From: Adineta vaga
Lineage: Eukaryota; Animalia; Rotifera
NCBI GenBank assembly: GCA_021613535.1
Contig: CP075492.1
Coordinates: forward strand, 8,261,653 to 8,325,652
Direction of reading: 5' to 3'
Length of the DNA: 64,000 nt
Part shown: positions 7,966 to 57,905 of the stretch, one piece after another
Position numbering within the stretch: position 1 is the stretch's first letter
Layout of the letters: the number at the start of each line of letters is the position of its first letter
Notes under the pieces: generated by a model
What the model saw: the letters and a program-made list of their open reading frames with translations, nothing else
Told to the model about the DNA's origin: nothing
Database searches by the model: none
Program-made: the position numbers and the translations under genes

Positions 7966-10900
7966 GTTTGAATCTCTTCCAATAAATTCGAGAGAAAATG
8001 TGTTTCTGTTGATTTACCATTAATTGATATATTAGTTGGAGAATTCTAAACAAGAGAAAGTGAAATAAAGTCTTGTCCGAAAAATAAAAATAACATACTG
8101 TAGATTTTAATAAAAGTGCAATCGGATGTCCTAAAATCGTTTCTGCATATAAAGATGCAGCTGAATTGATTTTTTCTACGACTAAAATAAGAAATCGTAT
8201 CGATAAGATGAATTGTTCTTTATAAATAGTCTACAAACCAGTTAGTCGAAAAGATTGACAAATATTATTAAGTATTGATGTAAAATCTTGATTCGATGAA
8301 GAGAGATTTATATTTGATTGAGATGTCAATGTTCCAGAACTCATCAGATCAGTAAAAGCATCACTAAATGAAATAATAAGACGAGAGAAAAAGAAACGAG
8401 AAGAATCAACTTACGAAGCGAGATTTTTTCTCCTTAAATATTGTGAACATGGTAGATTAAGTTTAAATTCAAGTGTATCACTTTCTGTTTTATTAGATTT
8501 CTAAAAAAGAAGAAGAAAATATTCTAACCGGATTGTTTTCTTATAAAACATACATTGACGGAATAAGTTAAAATTGTTTTTAATTTTTGAGGAAATGATA
8601 TTGCATTGATAGCAAAATAAATATGAAGATAATTTTGTGCATGAGGAAAAAGACTTATCGTTGAGAATGATATACGATTTGCACTTGTTGTATTTAGTAA
8701 TTTTGAACTCATACTATCGATAATATGAATATCAATATGATCAATGATTGATGATGTTTGATTTTTCAAAAGAAAAGTTATATCAAGTTCAGCTGTTGAT
8801 GGTTTTGGAGTTATCGAATATTCCTAAAAGATTTGATATACATTTAGAATTAACGATTTTCTCATTTTCAAATATGAGATAACTTACAATAGTTAGATTG
8901 TCAGATTGCGCAGCGAATTTGTAAGAATCTTTTTCAATATATTGTTGATTAGATTGATTTGTTGGAAGAATATCATCGCTCATTATATCGAATAGAAGTG
9001 GAGCAGATTTATTTGGATCTATTGTGGTAGTTTTTGATGTTGATTTTTTCTCTTTAGTTTTCTTTTTCTTTGATTTTTCTTCAGAAGTCGTTGAAGGAAT
9101 AGGAGACGATGATACAGGTTTTTCTTCTTCATCCGCTGGTGATAATAATTCTTTGTAATCATTACGTTCTGGTTCTTTCAGTTTCGATTTCAAAGTCGTC
9201 GATGTAGTCTTTTTCTCTATTGTTTTTTTCTTGGATTTTTTCGGTTTTTCACTTGATATAGACGAAGGAGGAGTTTCTACGGATTTTTGAGGTGATTCAT
9301 TAGGTCGAGATATGGGTTCAGGAGGTACAGATGTAGGTGGTTGTTTAGGTATTTCGTTTAAATCAATATTCAATGCTCGATGTGGATCATATTTTTTATT
9401 TTTCTGAATAATTCTATTGTCATCATCATTATCTTCATTACCACTTTCTGCTATACCTTCAGGTAATTCACCACCACGTGTCACTTTGATTGATGGATAA
9501 ATGTCATCATCATTATCATCAGCCGTTACTGTATCGGATTTTTTCGAAGATTTTTTGCCTTTCTTCGATGAAGTACCATCCGTTTTCGATTTTTTCTTCA
9601 AACGTCGATTTTCTTCGTCAATTTTAGTTTGACGATATAATTGATCTGAAAGAGAAGTTTGTAAGTTATTCGGAATCGTTCCTTTGTATGATGTAGCCGA
9701 AGGATTTTCATTGCCATTTGTCATATTCATCGATGTTTCAGGCTAGAATTTAGAGAAAAAAGAATTCGATAGTGATCAATCTTTAAAAACAAAACGTACC
9801 TTCGATGTACTTTTACTTTTTTTCGTATCTTTCAAATAGAATGGATTCATTTTTTCACTTTGTTTTCTTGATTCTCGTTGTTGTTCTAATTCGTCAGATG
9901 TCGGTTCAACATAATTTTTCGTCTTTTGGTAAGTTGATGTATCATTCATATATGAATTCGAATTATAACTATCTTCATTATTTTCATAAAACAATCCCTT
10001 ATTATCATAACGTGTGCTTTCTCACAACTGATTCATCTTCACTTTCCGAGGGTGGTTCATTGATCCAAGCATCCAAATCCAAACTAGAAAAAAAAGTCAT
10101 TTACAAATGAGGATTATTCAATCAAAATCAATCACTAATTTACCCATTTGGTACAGCAACTTTACGTTGAGCTTTCGCAGCAACTGGATTAAGAACACCA
10201 TCGAATAATACTGATAATTCATTGACATTAAATTCCGATTTTTCGAGAAGTTTTAATACTGTTTTGAGAATATGTAAAATAACACTTGCCTAAAAACGTA
10301 GATTGCGTTCTCTTTTCTCTCTATTCGATGAATTAAACATACGCGTTCTTGTGCTTCAACATCGCCACTTGATAAAAATGTTGACATTTTTTCAATGGTC
10401 ATTGAAATCAATTGTTTAGCTAAAATTTCATCATTATTCGATGATTGAATTAAATACGTGATAATTTTTAGAATATTTTGATAATAAACAGATTGAATAT
10501 GACCAGGAAAGACAATAATTTTTGTATTTAATATTGCTTGAAGTGTTTCCTGTGGTTCTTTCAAATATCTATCAAAACATTTTTCTCGTATAGAATAAAA
10601 AAAACAAAGAAATAGTTTTTCATTGATTACTTACGAACAAAATTCTCCACAAATCCATGCCGCAGCATATAAAACTTCTGCAACAGTTGTAGTATTTGAA
10701 CCGATAATAAAAACATGCGCATTTGCAAGAAGAATTGCCTGAAAAAAAAGAATGATTTTTTGTTTCTATTTATATTTGACAAATACTTACCATTTGGTTA
10801 CATGCAAATGGACGAATTGATTCAACACGAACAGCAACATCTAACATTTGTAAAGCAATGAGATTTCCATGTTTTGTTCCTTCGAGACGTGTTAATTCAA

Positions 10901-27173: not shown

Positions 27174-27650
27174 ATGTCATCAACAACATCTTCAGCTTCT
27201 CCTAGTGCACAAACACGACGTTTAGTACTAGATTTAAATTCATATAATAAAAATCCATTACCGTACATTCGAGATCTTCAATATTCCGTGGATTCAGATG
27301 GTTTTAATCAATTGCATGGAATATTAATTGGTCCAGAGAAAAGTTCATACGAGAACGGTCAATTTCATTTTCGAATTAAATTTCTACTAGAGTATCCTTT
27401 TAAACCTCATGAATTCTACTTTCTGACACGAATCTGTCATCCAAATGTAGAAACAGAAACCGGTCATGCTTGTCATGATGAACTTCTTTCCTCATGGACA
27501 CCACAGGTATCAATCATGACTATATTTTCGAAAATGCATGGACTTCTTGCACAACCTGATTATAATAAATATTACGAACAAAAAGTCATTCCAGGAAAAG
27601 ATCCAAATACAGCTCGAGAATGGACAGAGAAATATGCAATGCCTGTTTAG
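27174..27650 (+). CDS. Ubiquitin-conjugating enzyme E2, UBE2L3 (UbcH7)-like and divergent. Single exon, 158 aa.
   Basis: The UBC fold is recognisable: GILIGPEKSSYENGQFHFRIKFLLEYPFKPHEFYFLTRICHPNVETETGHACHDELLSSWTP versus human UBE2L3, which I recall as [61 protein letters not shown]. The HPN motif and the catalytic Cys are aligned. Confidence 0.7.
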   Translation: MSSTTSSASPSAQTRRLVLDLNSYNKNPLPYIRDLQYSVDSDGFNQLHGILIGPEKSSYENGQFHFRIKFLLEYPFKPHEFYFLTRICHPNVETETGHACHDELLSSWTPQVSIMTIFSKMHGLLAQPDYNKYYEQKVIPGKDPNTAREWTEKYAMPV

Positions 27651-27837: not shown

Positions 27838-30255
27838 TTATCTGTTTACACTAGGAGAAATGTAAGTGTCAACTTGTTTCATTTGGTTTTTACATCGACA
27901 GAGTGTCGTTGGTACAAAAACTGTTTCATTATTACAATAATGTATCGGATTATTTTCTTGTTGATGTGCAAGTAGATTCTGTTGTAATTCAGATACACAT
28001 TCTTGATGATTCGGATAGATCAATTGACTTCCAACAATGAGTACTGCTTGACACGGCTGATGTACTTGTTGTTGCTGCTGTTGTTGTTGTTGTAAATTTG
28101 GTGATGAATAACCTTTCATCGTCGACAGATATTCATGTGCATTTGACGAATGACAACAATGATAATGACGAAATGATGGCGGATAGGGTGGCAAAGCTGG
28201 TGCATTCGTATTCATTAATTTTTTATCATTATATAGAAATGGTTGTTCACTATCGGATGATAAGGATGGTAATTGTTCATAGAGACTATCATTAACTGGA
28301 AGACTCTCTGGTGTTTTATGTATTGGTTGATGAAGAGTCGTATGATAATAATAATGATGTGAACGTTGTCGTTCAAGTTCAGCTGTTATATGACGACGAA
28401 GTTTTCGTCGACAAATCGCCAATGATATAAGTAATAAAAGGAAGAGTAAAACGAAGAAAAGAAGAAAAAAAACGATGACAATTAATGTTTGATTATGTTG
28501 AATAAGATTCGATGCTGTAAATGAATCATGATGAAAGATTGAAAAGAGTTTTGACGGATCTTTAACAGATACAAATGATGGATAAATACTTGTTGTATAA
28601 AATACAGCATCGAATGAGACTATTAAAATAAACAAATTCAAAATATGTTTGATTCAATTGAACTAAGGTTTTTAATCAATATGAAACAAACCTGTCGTCG
28701 ATGATTCTGTTGTTCGTATAACACGAATTAAATCATCATTTTGATCAATTTTCCATCCGTAACTAATTATTTCTCCTTCATTAACTTGTTCATTTGATAA
28801 AATAACATATTGCAAATTTTTTAAACATCCAAATAAATTATTCATATTCGGTAATATTCTCATTAGATTTGAATTGTAACTTAAATTAATTTCTTGTAAA
28901 TTTGTCGCAGCACAAAATGTTTCATTCGTAAAATTTCGTATATTATTTTTCGCTAAATTCAATTTTATTAATAAACTTTTACCAACAAATACAAATGGTT
29001 TGATTTGTTCGATACGATTTTCTTCATAATTAAGTTCAGTGATTGTTTCCGGTAAAAGGATATGAATATGAGAGAAATTTCCTTGTCGACATTTGACAGT
29101 ATGTTGTGACCAAAGAGTATCATGTGAACATAAACAGTCAGAAGGACATACTGAATGACAATCACATGCTTCAAAATCACAACATGTACAATCGGATGTA
29201 CAATGTCGAGTATAGAAACATTGAAAATCACTTGAAGAAACATCAAAGATTGAACGAGAATTACATTGAAGAAAAGATAAATCAGTAATATTAATTGACG
29301 ATGAATTCAATAATGAATTAAGCCAACAATCGCATATGAGAGGATTACCATAGAGTATAAGTTGAAGAATAGGAGTATTTAAAATCTACAGAAGAACAAA
29401 AAGAAACATCATAGTTTAGATAAAAACATTTTTTGATAAATCGAAAAAATTTACTTGATAATCATCATGAGTTGACTTGTTCAGTATATCTTTGAAGAAT
29501 TCTAATGAATTTATTTGATTAAATCGAAGATCGAGTACTTGTAAAGATTTATGTAACCATTTGTTATCAATCCATGTCAGAGCATTAGTTGATAGATTCA
29601 AATATTCAAGTTCTATACTTCGATCAAGTATAGGCAATCGTTCTAAATGATTATCAGCTAATGATAAATGAGTTAATTTTTTCAATGATTTTAATAATGA
29701 TACAAGAGATGATTGTGCTAAATTACAATCAGTTAAATCTAATTGCATTAAATTTCTTGGTAAAGATGATAATTGAAGATGTTTATTATGACGAAGACTA
29801 AGACCAACTAGTTGTTGTTGATGAATATGATTTGAACCAAATTTAATTTCACGTAGATTTGGATTATGATCAAGATATAGATATTTCAACTGGAATGGTA
29901 ACGGATAAGAAAGTATAAATGTTGATAAAAGATTGTAACTTAAATCAAGTGTTTCCAATGATGATGGTAGAGAAAATGGTAATTGACTTAATGTTAATAA
30001 TTGACATGAATTGATTTGAAAAGTTCGCATTGTATAATTGGAAGAAAATGAAAATAATGGAAGATTCGTCATTGTTAATGTATTTGTTGTACATATTTGC
30101 TTTTCATCTTGTTGTAAAGATAGATATTCAATTAAAATAGTGCACTGTTCAGTTATTCGATCATTTGAAAAAAGAAAATGTTTATTATCCGTACAATTCC
30201 ATTCAAATGATTGACTATTGTGAATAAGAAAGATGATCAAGAAAATAAACATCAT
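27838..30255 (-). CDS. Leucine-rich-repeat type I transmembrane receptor with two LRR blocks separated by an LRRCT/LRRNT-like cysteine cluster, and no TIR domain. Three exons: 29431-30255, 28680-29372, 27838-28608.
   Basis: Exon 1 carries the signal peptide MMFIFLIIFLIHNSQS and about 10 LRRs (LxxLxLSxNxL). Exon 2 carries GNPLICDCWL (LRRCT) and then CTSDCTCCDFEACDCHSVCPSDCLCSHD...VKC followed by more LRRs. Exon 3 carries the TM helix VIVFFLLFFVLLFLLLLISLAI, the stop-transfer RRKLRRH, and a 190-aa Q/H/Y-rich tail. Confidence 0.8.
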
Positions 30256-34654: not shown

Positions 34655-35619
34655 TCACTTTTGTTCATCATCGACATCTTGCACTTCATTATGTGCGTTA
34701 TCATTATCACCAGGCATATCCGTTGTCCATAATGTGAGATTGTCACGTAAAAGTTGCATAATTAATGTTGAATCTAAATGAAGGAAAAGAAAATTTTCTT
34801 TACATAAATAAAAAAATCTATTAAAACAATTCAAACCTTTGTATGTATCTTCATTGAGTGTATCCAATTCAGCAATGGCATCATCGAAAGCCTTAGAAAA
34901 GATGAAATTTCATTAGAAAAATCAATACAAATGAAGTCTAAACAAATGACATACTTGTTTAGCCAATCGACAAGCTCGTTCAGGTGTATTGAGAATTTCA
35001 TAATAGAATACCGAAAAATTCAAAGCTAAACCAAGACGAATGGGATGGGTTGGTGGTAATTCATTTTGAGCAATATCATTCGCTTTTGTATAGGCGACGA
35101 GTGAATTTTCTGCTGCTTCTTTTCGATCCTCTTGGGTTGCAAATTCAGCTTTATATCGATGATAATCACCTTTCATTTTTAAGTAAAAGACTTTACTTTC
35201 ACCTGATGCGGCATTTGGTAAAAGATTTTTATCAAGTAAATCAAGAATATCTTGACAAATATCACGTAATTCTTTTTCAACCTGAGAACGATATTTCTTT
35301 ATCATAGCCATTTTTGTATTTTCCGATTTATTTTCTTCTTTACTTTCAATATTAGTAATAATTCGCCATGATGCACGTCGTGCTCCAATTAAATTTTTAT
35401 AGGCCACGGAAAGTAAATTACGTTCTTCAACGGTTAATTCTTGATCCATTTTAGCAACTTTTTTCATGGATTCAACCATTTCTGATAAATTAAAAAACAA
35501 AACAAAGCAAATTAATTTTACGTTGTTAATTAAATTAGTTGTCTTTTCTTACCTTCATATCGTTCAGCTTGTTCAGCCAATTTAGCTTGATAGACATCAT
35601 CATCACGTGAGGCAGGCAT
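34655..35619 (-). CDS. YWHAE: 14-3-3 protein, epsilon type. Four exons: 35554-35619, 34955-35482, about 34838-34892, 34655-34774.
   Basis: [22 protein letters not shown] | [42 protein letters not shown]...[80 protein letters not shown] | [18 protein letters not shown] | [24 protein letters not shown]. This is near-identical to 14-3-3 epsilon. Confidence 0.95.
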
Positions 35620-44129: not shown

Positions 44130-47100
44130 GATTTTAAACAGCAAACATTTGAGGAATATATAAATCTGATTCATTCAACGATTGAGATAAATCATCCAGA
44201 GCAACTAGATTTGTATTCATAGATGATGAAGGATCGACTGGCATTCCAGTTGGATCAGTAGTTCCATTTGTTGCATACATACTTGCGTACAGACGACGCT
44301 AAATTAATTTTGAGAAAAAGAATATAGACTATAATGATAAAGTTTCGCATACCTTCTTAGCTTCATTCTCCATCACTTCATAATGGTCGGCATAATGTAC
44401 ATTTGGATTCGTCGTTGTTCCATACATACGATAATGTTGTTGTTGCTGTTGTTGCTGTTGCTGTTGTTGTTGTAAAATATGACGAGAATGTTGTTGTTGC
44501 TGTTGTTGAGAAGGATCAAGATAAGGTAATTCAATCAGTCCATTCTTTCCTTTATTTGTGGTCACTAATGTTCGTCGAACGATAGGTCGTAATTTATACA
44601 ATGGAGGTTCAGGGGCGTTTGCTGTTATACATTTTGGACATAACCATGTCTCTGGGATATCATCACTAAATACACCTTCATTAGTAGGAGCATCTGTATG
44701 AGAAGACTAGAAAGAAGAAAAATACATTGTCAAGAAGTTTGTTCGATGTTACTATGAATAAGAAAACTATTGGATTTACATGAAAACATGGTAAATGATG
44801 AATTTCCATACAACGTTCACATTCATAAAGAATTTCTTCAGGTTTTAATTGAGATAATTTTCGAGAACCTTTCTTTTTCAAGCAAACTTGACATGATGCT
44901 GTTGAAGGTAGAATTGGAGCAATACATTGTTTAGTTAAACAACATTGTTTCATTTTTCCAACGCCACCAAATTTAGGCATATCTTTACAATGTACACATT
45001 CGGAACAATCATCTCGACAACATGGTTCACATTGTTTACATCTAGAAGATGAACAAAAACAAATCAGCATATAAAACGAAAATAATTGGCAAAATTCATA
45101 CCGAACACGTTTATGTCGATCTTTTGCAGTGGTACTTTTATCGGTTTGATAGTGTTGTTGAGTGGGAGATGTAGTTGGATTGTATTGATTATAATTATTA
45201 ACATACTGTTGTTGTTGTTGTTGTTGTTGCTGTTGCTGTTGTGGAGAATAATAATTTGAAGAATTAGAACTAGCTAATGGTCCACTTAATAGGACAGTTG
45301 TTGATGGATGTAATGTAACAACACTTGAACTTGGTTGTTGCATTGACAATGTATCATATTGATGAGAAGGATGAAGATGATGAAAAGATGGTTGTTGCAT
45401 ATCGTTGTCAACAGGATTTTTACGTTTTATGCCTTGAAAAGACTCCGTTTCGTTCTAAGAGAAAGAAAGATATACGCAATGAATGTTATATCATCAATGA
45501 AGAGAAGAAGAAAAAACACCATGTCGAAACACGATGACTTTTGTAATAGTTTATTTAGAGCTCCGACTTTATGTACATGTGTCTATCTCTATTGTTTTTC
45601 TTCAGCTTACTTGATTGTTAGTTGAATCGAACGAATAGTGATGATGATTATAGTTGTAATGAATTAGTGATTGACCAGTTACTGATAAATGGGGATCATC
45701 AGAAGCATGATCAATAAGAAGACGCTAGAAATAAGATTCACTTATATATTTATATTAAAGTCCAAGGTTAACAACAAATAGAATGAGAGGTCAAGTGAAT
45801 TTGACGTGTAAATATCTATTCAGAGGATATATAGACATTGTCATAGTTCTTTTCTATTGATCAGATTCTTTTAAATAGAAATTATTTAAACAGATGAAAT
45901 ATTAACGAGAGTATTTTATGTATATATTATCGAGGTCAAATAACTAACCCTCAAGAGAGAGTGAGTGAGTGAGAGAGAGAGAGATTTTGTTGGGTAAATT
46001 CTTTCAATTTAATTTACTATACCTCCATAGATTCCAAAAGTTGTTGTGGTTGAACGAGATCTTCCGGGATCGATTTGTCTTTTAATTTGCGTAAGAGAGC
46101 ACATAATGTTTTCAAACCGTCTAGTTCAAATTGAGTCAAATGTTGATGTGTTACTTCAATGTCTTTATTATTATTATGATTGTTCACTAGCAACAATTGA
46201 CTTGTTTGACAAGGTTTCAGATCTAAAGGCAGAGCAATAATATATATATATATATGTGGAAGAAATTGAGACAAAAGGGCTTCCTATTTGCTGCTCATCA
46301 TTTGAACAGAATAACAATGGACCTCTCGAAATACGAAGAAGGATAGTGAATATGAATAAGAAAAGAAAAAAACATCATAGTTTTCAAAAGAAAACGAGAG
46401 AGAAGAGATACCTTGATTTACAAACATATGTCTACCTGTCTGCACTAATCGATCGCAATTATAAAGATTTTTTACAGAACTAAAACTGCATACAACTAGA
46501 AATAAATCGAAGCAATGAACAAAGCAAAAAGGAGAGACAGAAACAGAGAGAGAAAAAAGACGACGAGTTTTTCCCTTTTTCGCTCCTATGCGCTCATTCA
46601 TAAAAGATTTGAGTAATTTGCACACAGATTTCTTTTCTTCTCTCTCTCCCTCTCTGTCTCTCTCTCTCTTTTCTTTGAGTGATCAGAAGACAGCAATAGC
46701 ATAGGAAAAGAGGGAAGGAAAAATTTTGAACAAAGAACAAGGCACAAGCGCGCATTGTGTAGCGAGAACATATTATTATGATTGTGTGTGTGTGATTGCA
46801 CAAGCGAGAGAAAGTGATTGACGAGTGAGAGAAAGAAACGAGAACGTCGAATGATCAGGTTGTAATAGCGGTAGTGCGTATTAATTATTCTCTTCTTTTT
46901 CCTTCTAGTTTTTTTTGTCATTTCAAATAAGAATTTCAAATTGATGGTCTTCACCTACTTCTCGAGATTTCCAAGTGCAATACATAGGCACTACTTGAAA
47001 ATTTATAATAAATATATGCGTAGTAGTTTGGCCAAGAAAAGAGAAGAAAAGAGAGAGAGAGAGTGGGTGAAAGATTTCATTTATTAATTAGCAAACACAA

Positions 47101-54388: not shown

Positions 54389-57300
54389 ATGATATGCAAA
54401 AATATTAATACGAAATTAAGATCACAAAGAGAAATTAAAGGAGATCCCATAGAGCAGTCTAATATAGAACAATTAAGCAGTTATGAACGTAAAATGGCAT
54501 ATTTTATACGTTTTCATCTACGAGATATTTTAACCAGTGATCATCTTCATGTTTGGTTTAATATTCAGACAAAATCATTAGAAGAAATTCAAGATCGAAG
54601 TCAAATATTGAGAAATGTTCCGGAAGACATCGATGTTGTCTATTGTTTTGGATCGATGCTTTCATATGATACATTTATTGAACACTCTAATGATCGTTCT
54701 CTTGCTCGTATTTGTCTTCAAAAACGCTCTAAAGCAATTCAATTAAAAATAGGATCATGTGTTATATTGATTGAACTCAGAAATATTGATTCACAACTTC
54801 TAATCAATCATTCAACTAAGGATAACTCTATACAAGTTATTTTTATGCTTAAATCACCACCGATTATCGAACAACTACAAGGACAAATTCATCGGTAAGT
54901 TAGAGAAGTATTTCATTGGATATAAATCATCTTTACTAGACTGTGTCTTTTCTCATCGTAAATTCGAACGTAAAAACAAAATACGAAATATTTTCTTCTT
55001 GAAGTTTTTATATCTTCTAACTGCATGACATCATTCTTCAAACTAAAATCCTAAAAATGTCATAGGTTAATTTCTATAATTTATGTATTTAGTGATAGAA
55101 AAGCAATGATCGAAGGAATTCCACATTGCAGTGATTTGCTCATTCGTTTCTTTCCAGCAAGTCATGCATGGATATTCTTACGAGAATTACCAATTGCTGG
55201 ATATACTCGCAGACCATCCGGTAATTTATTTCATATAAATTTTGCTATATTTGCATGGCAAAAAGATCCCAGTTATTTACTTCCTATGGGTAAACCAACG
55301 TACAATTCGTACTATGAATCTTATGCTATGGAAATGCTCTGGTCATTGGGTTATATCTATCAAGATAAATACAATGCTGATTCACAAGTGATGAACAATA
55401 TGCGAAATAAGAATTTCTATGATTTAGGTTGTAAAATTTGGCATAATTTAAAAATAAATCACTGTTATCGTCTTCGAGATGCATTAAATGATCGAAAATC
55501 ACAAAATAATACTAAGAATTCAAGTGGATCATCAGAATTGAAAGAAGTAGCATTTGTAATATTAACACCATCTCGTATTGAATATCAACCAATGCCAACA
55601 ACAATTTCTCATCGAGGTTTTAATTTTTACGATTCTGAACAGTGGTTGCTTGTTCATATACGAGATCATAATGGAATGGATAAGATTCGTGAATTAGATT
55701 TACAGAATAAAGTACGATTCAAGAATTTCATGATACAAGGTATTCGTCGAAATGATCGTTTGTATCGATATTTTGGTTCATCGAATAGTCAAATGAAAGA
55801 TCAAGCTGGTTGGTTTTTATCTCTTCCTCAAGGAGAAACGATAGAAAAAGCACGTGAAAAACTTGGTGAATTATCAAAAATACCCAATGTATCTACATAC
55901 ACGGCAAGACTTGGTTTGTATCTATCAACATCACGATCTGCTGAAGTAAGATTACTTTTCAATTAACTTGATTCTTTCTAAAAGATTATATGGTATGATA
56001 ATTAATATTCATTTTTCACATCTAGATCAAGCTAGTGAAGAAAGGCGAAGCACAAGATAAAGACGGAGGATCATATATAAACCAATCATCAGGATTCTTT
56101 TCTTCTCTGATAACGTTCCAAGAAGGTATTATAAATGAAGTCTGAATGAAGTATTTCTCAGGGAGATATTTTTAGGTTTTTAAATCTGAAAATAAACCAA
56201 TAGAATATATGGCTATTATTATACCGGATGAGAAGCATAATGACTTTAACTTTACTGATGGTTGTGGTAAAATTTCATGGGCTCTTGCCAAAAAGGTTGC
56301 GTTGAATATCGGTATAAAAATTAGCGAGAATGTAAGTTGTATCAAAGCTTTTCAAACATTCTACTCAATGTATGATTCTAGTCGGATGTACCATCGGCGT
56401 TTCAAGTTCGAATAGCTGGCTGCAAAGGCATGTTATCTATAGATCCCAAATCAAAAGGCAAAGGCAAATTGTACTATATTTTGGTTCGAAAGAGTATGGT
56501 CAAGTTTGATAGTGATGATTGGACTCTGCACATTGTCGACCATTCGCGTCCTAGTAAGTGCTCAATAAAGCAGACAATCTTCATAAACTTTCTATTTAGT
56601 GCCACTAAGCTTGAACAATCAAGTTATTCGTTTATTGAGCGACTTGGGTATTAGTAATGGTATGTTCGAATCGATTCAACAACGATGTATCGACCAGAAA
56701 GAATTCTGGCATCCACCACCAAAAAGTTATCTGAATGCAATGGATTCTCTTGATCAACAAGCAATTGAGGATAAACGAAAACAATACAAAAATGCGTATG
56801 TTTCTTGTTTTTTTTATAGTATCCATATACTAGAATGCAGTTGAAACTTTTCAGAAAACATTTTCTTGAACGAAATAAAATACCATTACCATTAAATGAT
56901 GGTCGATTCCTATTTGGAATTGCAGATGAAACAGGAACATTGAAACCAGGACAATGTTTTATCCAGTATCGGGATCTCAGGAATTCACCAAGATCAAAAA
57001 TATATCATGTACATGAAGGTACAATTGTAACAGTCCATATTTCTAAAACATGATTCATTGTTCGAAACAAATTTATTCTAGGAACTGTTATAGTGACAAA
57101 AAATCCATGTCTTCATCCTGGAGATGTACGTAAACTTGAGGCAGTTTGGGTAGAAGCACTAGAGTCTTGTATACGCGATTGTATTGTATTCAGTACACAA
57201 GGTCTTCGGCCAAGTTTCAATGAAATGGCTGGTTCCGATTTAGACGGCGATCAATACTGGGTCTATTGGGGCGATGAACTCAAAGTTACACGACCCGTTG

Positions 57301-57905
57301 AACCACTATTATATCCATCAGCCGAGAAAAAGCCTAGCGGTTCTATAACTAATGATCTCATTGTCGATCATGTACTTAATTCATTTACAAATAGTGTCGT
57401 CGGTACGATCGGTAATTTACACAAGGTTATTGCTGACAAAGATCCACGTGGCACCCTCTCTCCAGAATGCAAAGAATGTGCATCACTCTTTGCTCGAGCA
57501 ATTGACGCATGCAAAACCGGTGAAGAAATTCCCAAAAATCGAATTAATCAACTGAAGGAAAAATATTATCAAACATGTCCAACCTGGATGATGAAATTTG
57601 ATAAACCAGTTATGGATCCACCAAGTACATCAATCAACGAAATTCTTTTTCGCAAAGCTCAAGAATCATGGCTAGATGAAGATTGCTATCATGATATTGT
57701 TCGACCATTTCAAGGTGTTGAATTTCCTGAAGAATTAATTGCAATTGATATTGACGATACAAATGAAACAGAAGGAACTCAAGATGAAAGTCAAATCCAA
57801 CGTATGGCTATTATATTATGCTGCAAATCATGCTGTTTATGCATATTTTGGACTGCAATCGTAATAGTCCTTTTATACGGTATTTTAAATTGGTGGAAAA
57901 AGTAA
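54389..57905 (+). CDS. Cellular RNA-dependent RNA polymerase of the RDR family (as in RRF/EGO-1/QDE-1), with 8 or more exons. Approximate exons: 54389-54895, 55093-55943, about 56026-56140, about 56185-56336, 56384-56554, 56598-56794, about 56822-56994, 57082-57905.
   Basis: The last exon contains GTVIVTKNPCLHPGDVRKLEAVWVEAL...VFSTQGLRPSFNEMAGSDLDGDQYWVYWGDEL. DLDGD is the RDR catalytic signature, and ...KNPCLHPGD... is the conserved motif preceding it. Upstream exons give RLYRYFGSSNSQMKDQAGWFLS, IIPDEKHNDFNFTDGCGKISWALAKKV, DVPSAFQVRIAGCKGMLSIDP, LNNQVIRLLSDLGISNGMFESIQQ and LNDGRFLFGIADETGTLKPGQCFIQY. All are canonical RDR blocks, and they join with consistent phases. The exon 3/4 junction is the only one I could not resolve cleanly. 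Confidence 0.9.

What the first reader, a model, noticed from the sequence alone, without database searches (positions are those of the whole stretch)
27838..30255. Toll-like LRR ectodomain architecture without a TIR domain
The ectodomain has an N-terminal LRR block, then an internal LRRCT (GNPLICDCWL), then a dense cysteine cluster (CTSDCTCCDFEACDCHSVCPSDCLC) that acts as an internal LRRNT, and then a second LRR block. This layout is characteristic of protostome multiple-cysteine-cluster Toll receptors and of Slit-like proteins. The 190-aa cytoplasmic tail is Q/H/Y-rich with a polyQ run and has no recognisable TIR domain. It could be a decoy or co-receptor, or a novel signalling tail.
Basis: partly seen in the sequence, partly recalled or inferred. 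Interest (0 to 1): 0.55.

Follow-up and report, generated by a model that had tools for sequence, protein, structure and literature searches.

The report
Rotifer Toll-type receptor lacking TIR
This bdelloid rotifer gene encodes a membrane protein whose outside part clearly descends from the Toll-6/7/8 ("long Toll") receptors, but its normal TIR signalling domain is replaced by a disordered tail with one extremely conserved short motif; this is a real, moderately interesting variant of something already noted in general terms for rotifers.

Summary
Window 27838-30255 (- strand) is a three-exon gene of Adineta vaga encoding a 758-aa type-I membrane protein. It is identical to the annotated 'hypothetical protein I4U23_013364'.

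The layout is: signal peptide, about 9-10 LRRs, a 4-Cys LRRCT, a 10-Cys cap, about 4 LRRs, a Cys-free stalk, a TM helix and a 190-aa tail.

The Cys signature (C-x3-C-x-CC-x4-C-x-C-x3-CP-x2-C-x-C) is that of long Tolls (Toll-6/7/8, C. elegans TOL-1). Of 102 non-family database representatives that carry it, 91 have a TIR, and 10 of the other 11 are truncated.

No TIR was found in the tail, in the 64-kb window, or at two orthologous loci. The tail is predicted to be disordered.

All named relatives are bdelloid (Adineta, Rotaria), and none has a TIR. The most conserved stretch of the whole protein is cytoplasmic: N-D/E-S-L-Y-E-Q-L-P-S-L-S-S-D-S-E-Q-P-F-L. The polyQ run is a species-specific CAA microsatellite.

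By definition this is a TIR-less 'LRR-only TLR-like' protein, a class already reported for rotifers. I read it as a long-Toll derivative that works without a TIR. I infer that it binds a surface partner through the ectodomain (latrophilin is the lead candidate) and signals or traffics through short tail motifs. The mechanism is untested.

The parts
27838..30255 (-). Whole gene (ATG 30255 to stop 27838-27840); 758-aa type-I membrane protein
   Evidence: 100% identical to NCBI I4U23_013364.
29455..30255 (-). Exon 1 (residues 1-267)
   Evidence: GT donor directly after codon Q267.
29386..29454 (-). Intron 1, 69 nt, GT-AG, phase 0
   Evidence: The spliced product equals the annotated protein.
28692..29385 (-). 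Exon 2 (residues 268-498 plus the first base of codon 499)
28620..28691 (-). Intron 2, 72 nt, GT-AG, phase 1
27838..28619 (-). Exon 3 (rest of codon 499 to residue 758, plus stop)
30208..30255 (-). Signal peptide (residues 1-16, MMFIFLIIFLIHNSQS)
   Evidence: Hydrophobic N-terminus present in all orthologs. The cleavage site is inferred.
30031..30207 (-). N-terminal cap with invariant C21, C38 and C55 (residues 17-75)
   Evidence: Invariant cysteines in alignment A1. This part of the AF2 model has low confidence.
29371..30030 (-). N-terminal LRR solenoid, about 9 repeats (residues 76-272; spans intron 1)
   Evidence: LRR pattern hits at residues 76, 100, 134, 169, 194, 216 and 238. Pfam LRR_4 and LRR_8. 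AF2 pLDDT mostly 65-90.
29218..29370 (-). Last LRR plus internal LRRCT (residues 273-323; GNPLICDCWL; C285, C287, C308, C323)
   Evidence: Aligned to the TOL-1 N-LRR C-cap. AF2 model of residues 268-498.
29089..29217 (-). Cys-rich N-cap of the second LRR domain (residues 324-366). Carries the long-Toll signature C-x3-C-x-CC-x4-C-x-C-x3-CP-x2-C-x-C. Includes the DFEA loop (residues 337-340, window 29167-29178), which aligns with the QYGN loop of TOL-1
   Evidence: 53% of columns invariant. In TOL-1 this cap is the latrophilin-lectin binding site.
28711..29088 (-). Second (C-terminal) LRR domain, about 4 repeats, capped by a beta-hairpin at 478-491; no LRRCT (residues 367-492)
   Evidence: Pfam LRR_8 best stretch 382-438. 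AF2 pLDDT mostly about 90 or higher. No cysteine after C454.
28486..28710 (-). Poorly conserved Ser/Thr-rich stalk (residues 493-543; spans intron 2)
   Evidence: 33% mean identity and 2% invariant columns. pLDDT below 50.
28411..28485 (-). Transmembrane helix (residues 544-568), followed by RRKLRR
   Evidence: Kyte-Doolittle peak of 3.7. AF2 helix 536-590. 84% mean identity.
27841..28410 (-). Cytoplasmic tail, 190 aa, predicted disordered, no TIR (residues 569-758)
28219..28296 (-). Invariant tail motif V-N-D-S-L-Y-E-Q-L-P-S-L-S-S-D-S-E-Q-P-F-L-Y-N-D-K-K (residues 607-632)
   Evidence: 92% mean identity and 77% invariant columns, the highest of any segment. Kept in the divergent short-tailed members P0020 and P0043.
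28177..28197 (-). Pro-rich motif A-L-P-P-Y-P-P (residues 640-646). P-x-L-P-P-x-P is conserved; Y is replaced by H in the paralog clade
28066..28093 (-). PolyQ run, a (CAA)9 microsatellite; species-specific and not part of the conserved design
   Evidence: Absent from or much shorter in orthologs.

Best explanation
**What it is.** The gene encodes a cell-surface glycoprotein descended from the 'long Toll' branch of protostome-type (multiple-cysteine-cluster) Toll receptors, that is Toll-6/7/8/18-wheeler and nematode TOL-1.

**What changed.** In the bdelloid rotifer lineage it has lost three things: the TIR domain, the membrane-proximal LRRCT, and about half of the N-terminal LRR solenoid.

[quoted passage not shown] It carries a disordered cytoplasmic tail with an invariant roughly 20-residue Tyr/Ser/acidic motif (SLYEQLPSLSSDSEQPFL) and a Pro-rich motif. 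These statements are shown by sequence and structure comparison.

**How it probably works (inferred).** It acts as a TIR-independent recognition or adhesion receptor, in the way long Tolls do in fly and worm morphogenesis.
- The ectodomain binds a surface partner. The best candidate is a latrophilin-type adhesion GPCR, which docks on exactly this Cys-rich cap and C-LRR in TOL-1.
- The tail recruits cytosolic factors or sorting machinery through short linear motifs. Candidates are a YxxL site (an SH2 ligand after phosphorylation, or an AP-2 sorting signal), an adjacent CK2-type acidic serine cluster, and a proline-rich site.
For: **Descent from long Tolls.**
- The best solved relative is the TOL-1 ectodomain, 8suf (E 1.1e-20), with the LRRCT, all cap cysteines and the following LRRs aligned.
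- The AF2 model of residues 268-498 (pLDDT 86.8) matches TOL-1 over all 230 columns at E 1.4e-8. The next hit is at 2.5e-4 and covers only about 120 columns.
- An exhaustive profile search shows a score gap after the rotifer family. Of the next 132 representatives, 102 carry the exact Cys signature and 91 of those have a TIR a median of 307 residues downstream. Ten of the other 11 are truncated.
- Named hits are Tollo, toll-like receptor 6 and toll-like receptor 7.

**Loss of the TIR.**

**Selective constraint.**
- Orthologs occur in A. ricciae, A. steineri and Rotaria species, and there is an A. vaga paralog. All lack a TIR.
- Microsynteny with a 14-3-3 gene is conserved.
- The tail motif is the most conserved segment (92% identity), ahead of the Cys cap (76%).
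- The motif survives in members whose tails are only about 58-90 aa long.

**Precedents for TIR-independent function in the closest relatives.**
- The cytoplasmic domains of Toll-8, Toll-6 and Toll-2 are dispensable for myosin polarisation, which goes through Cirl/latrophilin (PMC8207821).
- The LAT-1 lectin domain binds the Cys-rich N-cap plus the C-LRR of TOL-1, and the C-LRR alone suffices (bioRxiv 10.1101/2023.05.04.539414).
- Toll-2 signals through Src-phosphorylated non-TIR C-terminal tyrosines (PMC11034934).
Against: - No binding partner, expression data or phosphorylation data exist for this protein.
- The TOL-1 loop whose mutation abolishes LAT-1 binding (QYGN) is DFEA here. TOL-1 K802 aligns with an acidic residue (E422). 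The interface is therefore not conserved at residue level.
- I could not test whether bdelloids have a latrophilin.
- The tail profile shows no significant similarity to the post-TIR extensions of Tolls (best E 0.04), so the tail may be a new invention rather than a retained Toll segment.
- Assigning the YxxL/acidic motif to SH2, AP-2 or CK2 is pattern matching only.
- No phylogeny was built, so 'derived from long Tolls by loss' rests on the shared signature and on score ranking.
Confidence: 0.6

Rival explanations
1. It is the LRR half of a split Toll receptor. [quoted passage not shown]
For: - Rotifers other than Epiphanes senta lack canonical TLRs but have LRR-only and TIR-only 'TLR-like' proteins. 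The Hydra precedent is cited as a possible solution for such animals (PMC8609888).
- A. vaga is reported to have about 120 proteins with TIR Pfam matches (bioRxiv 10.1101/2021.09.04.458992).
- The TM helix is unusually conserved (84% identity), which would fit an intramembrane partner.
Against: - No partner has been identified.
- No TIR gene lies nearby in the 64-kb window.
- High TM identity may only reflect the L/F-rich low-complexity composition.
- A pure ligand-binding subunit would not need a 20-residue invariant cytoplasmic motif.
- The closest relatives are the developmental long Tolls rather than immune Toll-1-type receptors.
Confidence: 0.2
2. It is a decoy or negative regulator, like the mammalian TIR-less TLR homolog RP105/CD180. 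It soaks up a ligand or blocks a signalling receptor without signalling itself.
For: It has a Toll-type ectodomain without a TIR. RP105 appears among the fold matches of the full-length model.
Against: - The tail is long (190 aa) and contains the most strongly conserved segment of the protein, which a passive decoy would not be expected to keep.
- No canonical Toll that it could regulate is reported in A. vaga (PMC6043800).
- No rotifer TIR-bearing relative appeared in the homolog searches.
Confidence: 0.1
3. It is an unrelated LRR adhesion protein (Slit-, Slitrk- or chondroadherin-like) whose cysteine cluster only resembles that of Tolls.
For: Generic LRRNT plus LRR matches to Slit2, VLRs, LRFN and IGFALS at E 1e-9 to 1e-13.
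Against: - Those matches cover only single blocks.
- The full 25-residue, 10-Cys signature together with the preceding LRRCT is matched only by Tolls.
- There are no EGF, Ig or FN3 domains.
Confidence: 0.05
4. It is a conventional Toll whose TIR exon was missed, or the gene is a decaying pseudogene.
For: None beyond the prior expectation that Toll-type ectodomains come with a TIR.
Against: - No TIR in any frame of the 64-kb window, of A. ricciae locus L001 or of metagenomic locus L002.
- A convergent E2 gene lies 188 bp after the stop.
- The C-terminus is conserved across species.
- The reading frame is intact, with conserved motifs, in more than 20 sequences.
Confidence: 0.03

Closest known systems
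Long Toll receptors: Drosophila Toll-6, Toll-7, Toll-8/Tollo and Toll-2/18-wheeler, and C. elegans TOL-1 (P-type / multiple-cysteine-cluster TLRs)
   Same: - Two LRR solenoids joined by an LRRCT plus a Cys-rich N-cap.
- An identical cysteine signature, C-x3-C-x-CC-x4-C-x-C-x3-CP-x2-C-x-C, with the flanking F-x-C-x-Y-x-x-H-C and H-D-x-x-W-S.
- A type-I membrane topology.
- These are the best sequence and fold matches.
- These relatives have documented TIR-independent functions.
   Different: - No TIR and no detectable post-TIR extension.
- No membrane-proximal LRRCT.
- The C-LRR has about 4 repeats.
- The N-terminal region before the signature is 328 aa, against a median of 717 aa in Tolls.
- The tail carries a rotifer-specific invariant motif.
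LRR-only 'TLR-like' proteins (for example Hydra HyLRR proteins acting with TIR-only HyTRR; the category defined in PMC8609888)
   Same: LRR ectodomain plus TM without a TIR, in an animal lineage reported to lack canonical TLRs.
   Different: - Here the ectodomain can be traced specifically to the long-Toll architecture.
- No TIR partner is known.
- The tail is long and strongly constrained.
RP105/CD180 (mammalian TIR-less TLR4 homolog)
   Same: A Toll-family ectodomain without a TIR. It appears among the fold matches.
   Different: RP105 has a single-cluster (vertebrate-type) ectodomain and a very short tail (from my own knowledge). This protein has an mcc-type ectodomain and a 190-aa tail with an invariant motif.
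Slit proteins
   Same: Tandem LRR domains, each with Cys caps. There is a local match to the Slit2 LRRNT plus LRRs (E 1.2e-9).
   Different: Slit is secreted and has EGF, LamG and CTCK domains (from my own knowledge). It lacks the CC-x4-CDC signature. This protein has a TM helix and no such domains.

Membership tests
Toll/TLR family (definition in PMC8609888: LRR + TM + TIR) | At least one extracellular LRR | tested here: met
   Pfam LRR_8, E 2.7e-18, plus LRR_4. AF2 solenoids.
Toll/TLR family (definition in PMC8609888: LRR + TM + TIR) | Single transmembrane helix, type-I topology | tested here: met
   One hydrophobic segment at 544-568 followed by RRKLRR, plus an N-terminal signal-like segment. 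AF2 helix.
Toll/TLR family (definition in PMC8609888: LRR + TM + TIR) | Intracellular TIR domain | tested here: not met
   - No Pfam TIR or TIR_2 hit at E<=1.
- The Toll-TIR HMM scores the tail at 0.7 bits, and the best hit in the window is E 0.57.
- hhalign probability 0.13%.
- The tail is predicted disordered.
P-type / multiple-cysteine-cluster Toll ectodomain | Internal LRRCT followed by an internal Cys-rich LRRNT between two LRR blocks | tested here: met
   C285/C287/C308/C323 followed by the 10-Cys cap, aligned to TOL-1. The model matches TOL-1 and Drosophila Toll across the junction.
P-type / multiple-cysteine-cluster Toll ectodomain | Membrane-proximal LRRCT after the second LRR block | tested here: not met
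   No cysteine between C454 and the TM. A beta-hairpin at 478-491 and a disordered stalk take its place.
Long Toll clade (Toll-6/7/8/18w, TOL-1) | Cap signature C-x3-C-x-CC-x4-C-x-C-x3-CP-x2-C-x-C | tested here: met
   Residues 329-353. The same signature occurs in 102 of 132 top non-family representatives, and 91 of those have a TIR.
Long Toll clade (Toll-6/7/8/18w, TOL-1) | Groups with this clade in a phylogeny | tested here: inconclusive
   The named best hits are all Tollo, TLR6 or TLR7, but no tree was built.
Long Toll clade (Toll-6/7/8/18w, TOL-1) | Long N-terminal solenoid (about 700 aa before the cap) | tested here: not met
   328 aa, against a median of 717 aa.
Latrophilin-binding Toll (TOL-1/LAT-1, Toll-8/Cirl) | C-LRR domain with a Cys-rich N-cap, which is the binding site in TOL-1 | tested here: met
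Latrophilin-binding Toll (TOL-1/LAT-1, Toll-8/Cirl) | Conservation of the contact residues (TOL-1 Q712-N715 loop, K802) | tested here: inconclusive
   The loop is DFEA (invariant in bdelloids; DFDA in many arthropod Tolls) against QYGN in TOL-1. K802 aligns with E422.
Latrophilin-binding Toll (TOL-1/LAT-1, Toll-8/Cirl) | A latrophilin with a lectin domain exists in the same organism and binds this protein | not testable with these tools
   No taxon-restricted proteome search or binding assay is available. The literature search found nothing for Adineta.
Split LRR-only / TIR-only receptor (Hydra type) | Physical and functional pairing with a TIR-only membrane protein | not testable with these tools
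   The only support is the reported abundance of TIR proteins in A. vaga.
RP105-type decoy | Short, unconstrained cytoplasmic tail | tested here: not met
   The tail is 190 aa, and its segment 607-632 is 92% identical across bdelloids.
Slit | Secreted, with EGF/LamG/CTCK domains after four LRR domains | tested here: not met
   Only LRR Pfam families are found, and a TM helix is present.

The most novel reading that the evidence does not exclude
Bdelloid rotifers offer a natural 'TIR-deletion experiment' on a long Toll. Selection has kept the latrophilin-binding cap/C-LRR module and replaced the TIR with a new invariant phosphotyrosine/acidic-serine docking motif. Under this reading, the ancestral and indispensable job of this Toll branch is cell-cell recognition through adhesion GPCRs, with a lineage-specific non-TIR output, rather than TIR/NF-kB signalling.
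Probability: 0.25. Interest if true: 0.6.

Novelty: new variant of a known kind. Interest (0 to 1): 0.4.

Why it matters
Whether Toll receptors began as developmental adhesion or recognition molecules or as immune sensors is an old question, and so is how animals without canonical TLRs manage. This protein bears on both.

It is conserved across bdelloid genera. It keeps the exact structural module that nematode TOL-1 uses to bind latrophilin, while lacking a TIR altogether. That makes the TIR-independent function of long Tolls testable in a natural setting.

It also points to a specific 20-residue tail motif as a candidate replacement output. Practically, it gives a precise identity to one of the 'LRR-only TLR-like' genes that rotifer genome surveys have mentioned without describing.

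Tried and rejected
1. **TIR exon downstream or elsewhere.** A Toll-TIR HMM built from four TIR-bearing hits was run against six-frame ORF fragments of the whole window, A. ricciae L001 and metagenomic L002. Nothing scored better than E about 0.5.
2. **Cryptic TIR in the tail.** Rejected by hmmsearch, hhalign and AF2.
3. **Tail retained from the long-Toll post-TIR extension.** The tail HMM against 96 post-TIR extensions gave nothing significant (best E 0.04). A loose [LIVMF]-Y-x-x-[LIVM]-P pattern ('HVYSTIPE') occurs in 14 of the 96. I keep this only as a lead.
4. **Tail-only homolog search for other proteins with the motif.** The word index returned a single candidate, so the search was uninformative.
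5. **Members outside Bdelloidea.** A search with the most divergent member, P0043, returned only bdelloid-named relatives and generic LRR proteins. The taxa of P0020 and P0043 remain unknown.
6. **Locus of the A. vaga paralog P0011.** Not on record, so ohnology by synteny was not tested.
7. **Flot et al. 2013 (the A. vaga genome paper).** Not held. Its statement that A. vaga has no canonical TLR is cited second-hand from PMC6043800.
8. **Latrophilin in bdelloids.** No literature was found.
9. **Pfam SIT hit.** The weak hit (E 0.049) covers only the TM helix and was dismissed as noise.
10. **Full-length AF2 model.** It was of low overall confidence (pLDDT 56, 11-sequence alignment). Its whole-chain fold matches have poor TM-scores and were used only qualitatively.
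Full report
**1. What is in the sequence**

The window is AT-rich (about 30% GC). On the - strand, three ORFs at 30255-29416, 29310-28672 and 28641-27838 join through two short GT-AG introns. Intron 1 is 29454-29386 (69 nt, phase 0). Intron 2 is 28691-28620 (72 nt, phase 1). Together they give a 2277-nt CDS.

The 758-aa product is 100% identical over its full length to NCBI 'hypothetical protein I4U23_013364 [Adineta vaga]'. The organism is therefore the bdelloid rotifer Adineta vaga, and the gene model is independently supported.

GNPLICDCWL is residues 280-289. CTSDCTCCDFEACDCHSVCPSDCLC is residues 329-353.

**2. Anatomy**

The parts, from N- to C-terminus, are:
- a hydrophobic signal-like N-terminus;
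- a Cys-containing N-cap (invariant C21, C38, C55);
- about nine LRRs (pattern hits at residues 76-238);
- a last LRR plus a four-Cys LRRCT (C285, C287, C308, C323);
- a ten-Cys cap (residues 324-366);
- about four LRRs (residues 382-470) closed by a beta-hairpin at 478-491;
- a poorly conserved Ser/Thr-rich stalk with no cysteine;
- one TM helix (residues 544-568) followed by RRKLRR;
- a 190-aa tail.

Pfam reports only LRR families. It finds no LRRNT or LRRCT model and no TIR. The cap assignments therefore rest on homology to solved Toll ectodomains.

The tail has Q 12%, H 7%, Y 6% and P 8%, roughly double the ectodomain frequencies. The polyQ run is a (CAA)9 microsatellite that the orthologs lack.

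**3. The ectodomain is Toll-type, specifically long-Toll-type**

- *Sequence against solved structures.* The best match is 8suf_A (E 1.1e-20), the C. elegans TOL-1 ectodomain. The alignment runs through the LRRCT, every cysteine of the cap and the following LRRs.
- *Homolog search.* After the rotifer family, the next hits are 1200-1330-aa proteins with Pfam TIR at 26-27% identity. Their sequences show the same F-x-C-x-Y-x-x-H-C-x3-C-x-CC-x-F-x-x-CDC-x3-CP-x2-C-x-C-x-H-D-x-x-W-S pattern.
- *Exhaustive profile search* against 1.84 billion representatives. Family members score 220 bits or more. Below them come mostly 1100-1700-aa proteins whose best stretch is profile positions of about 190-470.
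- *Signature and TIR counts.* Of those 132 non-family representatives, 102 carry the exact signature C-x3-C-x-CC-x4-C-x-C-x3-CP-x2-C-x-C. Of these, 91 have a TIR starting a median of 307 residues later. Ten of the 11 without a TIR end before or at the point where a TIR would begin. The 25 hits with neither the signature nor a TIR are mostly giant LRR proteins, plus a few fragments.
- *Names of the hits.* Those that carry names are 'toll-like receptor Tollo', 'toll-like receptor 6' and 'toll-like receptor 7' of crustaceans, insects and mites, Trichinella Tollo, and an oyster cluster.
- *Structure.* An AF2 model of the exon-2 module (residues 268-498, 28-sequence alignment, pLDDT 86.8, pTM 0.81) matches TOL-1 over all 230 columns at E 1.4e-8. 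The next hit, Nogo receptor, is at 2.5e-4 and covers about 120 columns. Drosophila Toll covers 216 columns.

Slit and other LRR proteins match only single blocks.

**4. Differences from long Tolls**

- The region before the signature is 328 aa, against a median of 717 aa in Tolls.
- There is no membrane-proximal LRRCT.
- There is no TIR.

**5. The TIR is absent, not merely missed**

- Pfam finds none at E<=1.
- A TIR HMM built from the four TIR-bearing hits scores the tail at 0.7 bits. In 1469 six-frame ORF fragments of the whole 64-kb window, it finds nothing better than E 0.57.
- Profile-profile comparison of the tail alignment with the TIR alignment gives 0.13% probability.
- AF2 gives pLDDT of about 25 for residues 582-758.
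- A convergent ubiquitin-conjugating-enzyme gene (27174-27650, +; Pfam UQ_con, E 7.5e-23) ends 188 bp after the stop.
- All 11 full-length relatives lack a TIR, and 9 of them end at the same ...P-x-V-H-R terminus.
- The A. ricciae locus and a metagenomic orthologous locus have no TIR in any frame.

**6. Family and constraint**

All named members are bdelloids: Adineta vaga, A. ricciae, A. steineri, and Rotaria sordida, R. magnacalcarata and two further Rotaria strains. They are 53-78% identical to the query. A. vaga also has a 53%-identical paralog, I4U23_029814.

Two divergent unnamed members exist. P0020 is 599 aa, comes from an activated-sludge metagenome and is intronless. P0043 is 487 aa and comes from an SRA assembly. 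A search seeded with P0043 found no monogonont or other named relatives.

A 14-3-3 gene lies just upstream on the same strand in A. vaga (34655-35500), in A. ricciae and at the P0020 locus. These are therefore true orthologs.

Conservation by segment, as mean identity to A. vaga and share of invariant columns among 11 sequences:

| Segment | Mean identity | Invariant columns |
|---|---|---|
| Tail motif 607-632 | 92% | 77% |
| TM helix | 84% | 52% |
| Cys cap | 76% | 53% |
| LRR blocks | about 66% | about 35% |
| Stalk | 33% | 2% |

The tail motif, N-D/E-S-L-Y-E-Q-L-P-S-L-S-S-D-S-E-Q-P-F-L, is (near-)identical in all but two of the 27 tails examined. It survives as GIYEQVSSDSEQPFLY in P0020 (tail of about 90 aa) and as TLYEELNSISSDNETHFF in P0043 (tail of about 58 aa). 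In both it is followed by P-x-L-P-x-x-P. The distal tail keeps invariant C653-C654-H655, C688 and C739-x-C741.

**7. How it most likely works**

*Shown.* It is a long-Toll-derived ectodomain on a membrane anchor. It has no TIR. Its disordered tail carries strongly constrained short motifs.

*Inferred from the closest relatives.*
- In Drosophila, Toll-8, Toll-6 and Toll-2 lacking their cytoplasmic domains still polarise myosin-II. Toll-8 does this with the adhesion GPCR Cirl/latrophilin (PMC8207821).
[quoted passage not shown] That domain alone suffices for binding, and mutating the Q712-N715 loop abolishes it (bioRxiv 10.1101/2023.05.04.539414). That loop lies between the 'CC' and 'CDC' of the signature. 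The rotifer equivalent is DFEA, which is invariant in bdelloids and close to the DFDA of many arthropod long Tolls.
- Toll-2 signals through Src-phosphorylated tyrosines in its non-TIR C-terminal region (PMC11034934).

The module that bdelloids have kept is thus the one known to bind latrophilin. A tyrosine-based non-TIR output also has precedent.

*Proposed mechanism.* I propose a TIR-independent recognition or adhesion receptor. The tail motif would act either as a phosphotyrosine docking site (YEQL/YEEL resembles Src-family SH2 ligands) or as a YxxL sorting signal. Next to it lies a CK2-type acidic serine cluster, and further along a proline-rich site. These motif assignments are pattern-based inference only.

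*Caveats.*
- The contact residues are not conserved. QYGN in TOL-1 is DFEA here, and TOL-1 K802 aligns with E422.
- The presence of latrophilin in bdelloids could not be checked.

**8. Rival explanations**

- *Split receptor.* A Hydra-type pairing with a TIR-only membrane protein is plausible. Rotifers are reported to have TIR-only and LRR-only proteins, and A. vaga has about 120 TIR-domain proteins. The conserved TM helix would fit this. Nothing here identifies a partner.
- *Passive decoy (RP105-like).* This is disfavoured by the invariant tail motif.
- *Unrelated LRR protein, or a missed TIR exon.* Both are essentially excluded (sections 3 and 5).

**9. Novelty**

The literature already states that canonical TLRs are not found in A. 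vaga and in most rotifers surveyed, and that LRR-only 'TLR-like' proteins are present (PMC6043800, PMC8609888). The bare observation is therefore known in kind, and the gene is annotated, though only as hypothetical.

I found no description of the following:
- its specific identity as a truncated long Toll that keeps the cap/C-LRR module;
- its conservation and microsynteny across bdelloids;
- the invariant cytoplasmic motif.

I rate it a new variant of a known kind and of moderate interest.

Noticed in passing
window 34655-35500 (-); L001 2636-3619; L002 6257-7083: A 14-3-3 gene (Pfam 14-3-3, E 1.7e-81) sits immediately upstream of the TIR-less Toll gene, on the same strand. The arrangement is the same in A. 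vaga, A. ricciae and a divergent activated-sludge metagenome ortholog, so the microsynteny is conserved. No functional link was tested.
   Followed up: partly
window 27174-27650 (+): A single-exon ubiquitin-conjugating enzyme (UQ_con, E 7.5e-23) is convergent with the gene. Its stop lies 188 bp from the LRR gene's stop. The A. ricciae locus has a different downstream neighbour, an 891-aa product with no Pfam hit.
   Followed up: partly
window 28066-28093: The polyQ run in the tail is a (CAA)9 trinucleotide microsatellite (TRF score 42). It is much shorter or absent in orthologs, so it is a species-specific expansion inside a disordered region.
   Followed up: yes
window 27886-28155 (protein residues 653-741): The distal tail keeps invariant C653-C654-H655, C688 and C739-x-C741 across 11 bdelloid sequences, although the surrounding sequence is poorly conserved. 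This could be a metal-binding or palmitoylation site. AF2 gives no confident fold there.
   Followed up: no
L002 8001-9800 (ENA ERZ937805, activated-sludge metagenome contig): The divergent ortholog P0020 (599 aa, 45% identity) is an uninterrupted ORF with no introns and has a tail of only about 90 aa. The source organism is unknown; the contig is 34% GC.
   Followed up: partly
window 55106-55966 and 57093-57905 (+): Two ORFs match eukaryotic RNA-dependent RNA polymerase (PF05183, E 1.5e-16 and 7.5e-44). They are probably exons of one RdRP gene.
   Followed up: no
window 8789-9730 (-) and 44681-45400 (-): An ORF with an AP-3 delta subunit C-terminal domain (E 1e-10) and an ORF with a CXXC zinc finger (E 1.1e-7). 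These are ordinary eukaryotic neighbours.
   Followed up: no
post-TIR extensions of long Tolls (for example P0063, P0075, P0168 and nematode P0119): A recurrent H-[VL]-Y-S-T-I-P-E motif (nematodes: L-Y-S-D-I-Y-G-I-V-P-S) lies near the C-terminus of 14 of 96 TIR-bearing long Tolls. It loosely resembles the rotifer L-Y-E-Q-L-P, but the similarity is not statistically supported.
   Followed up: partly
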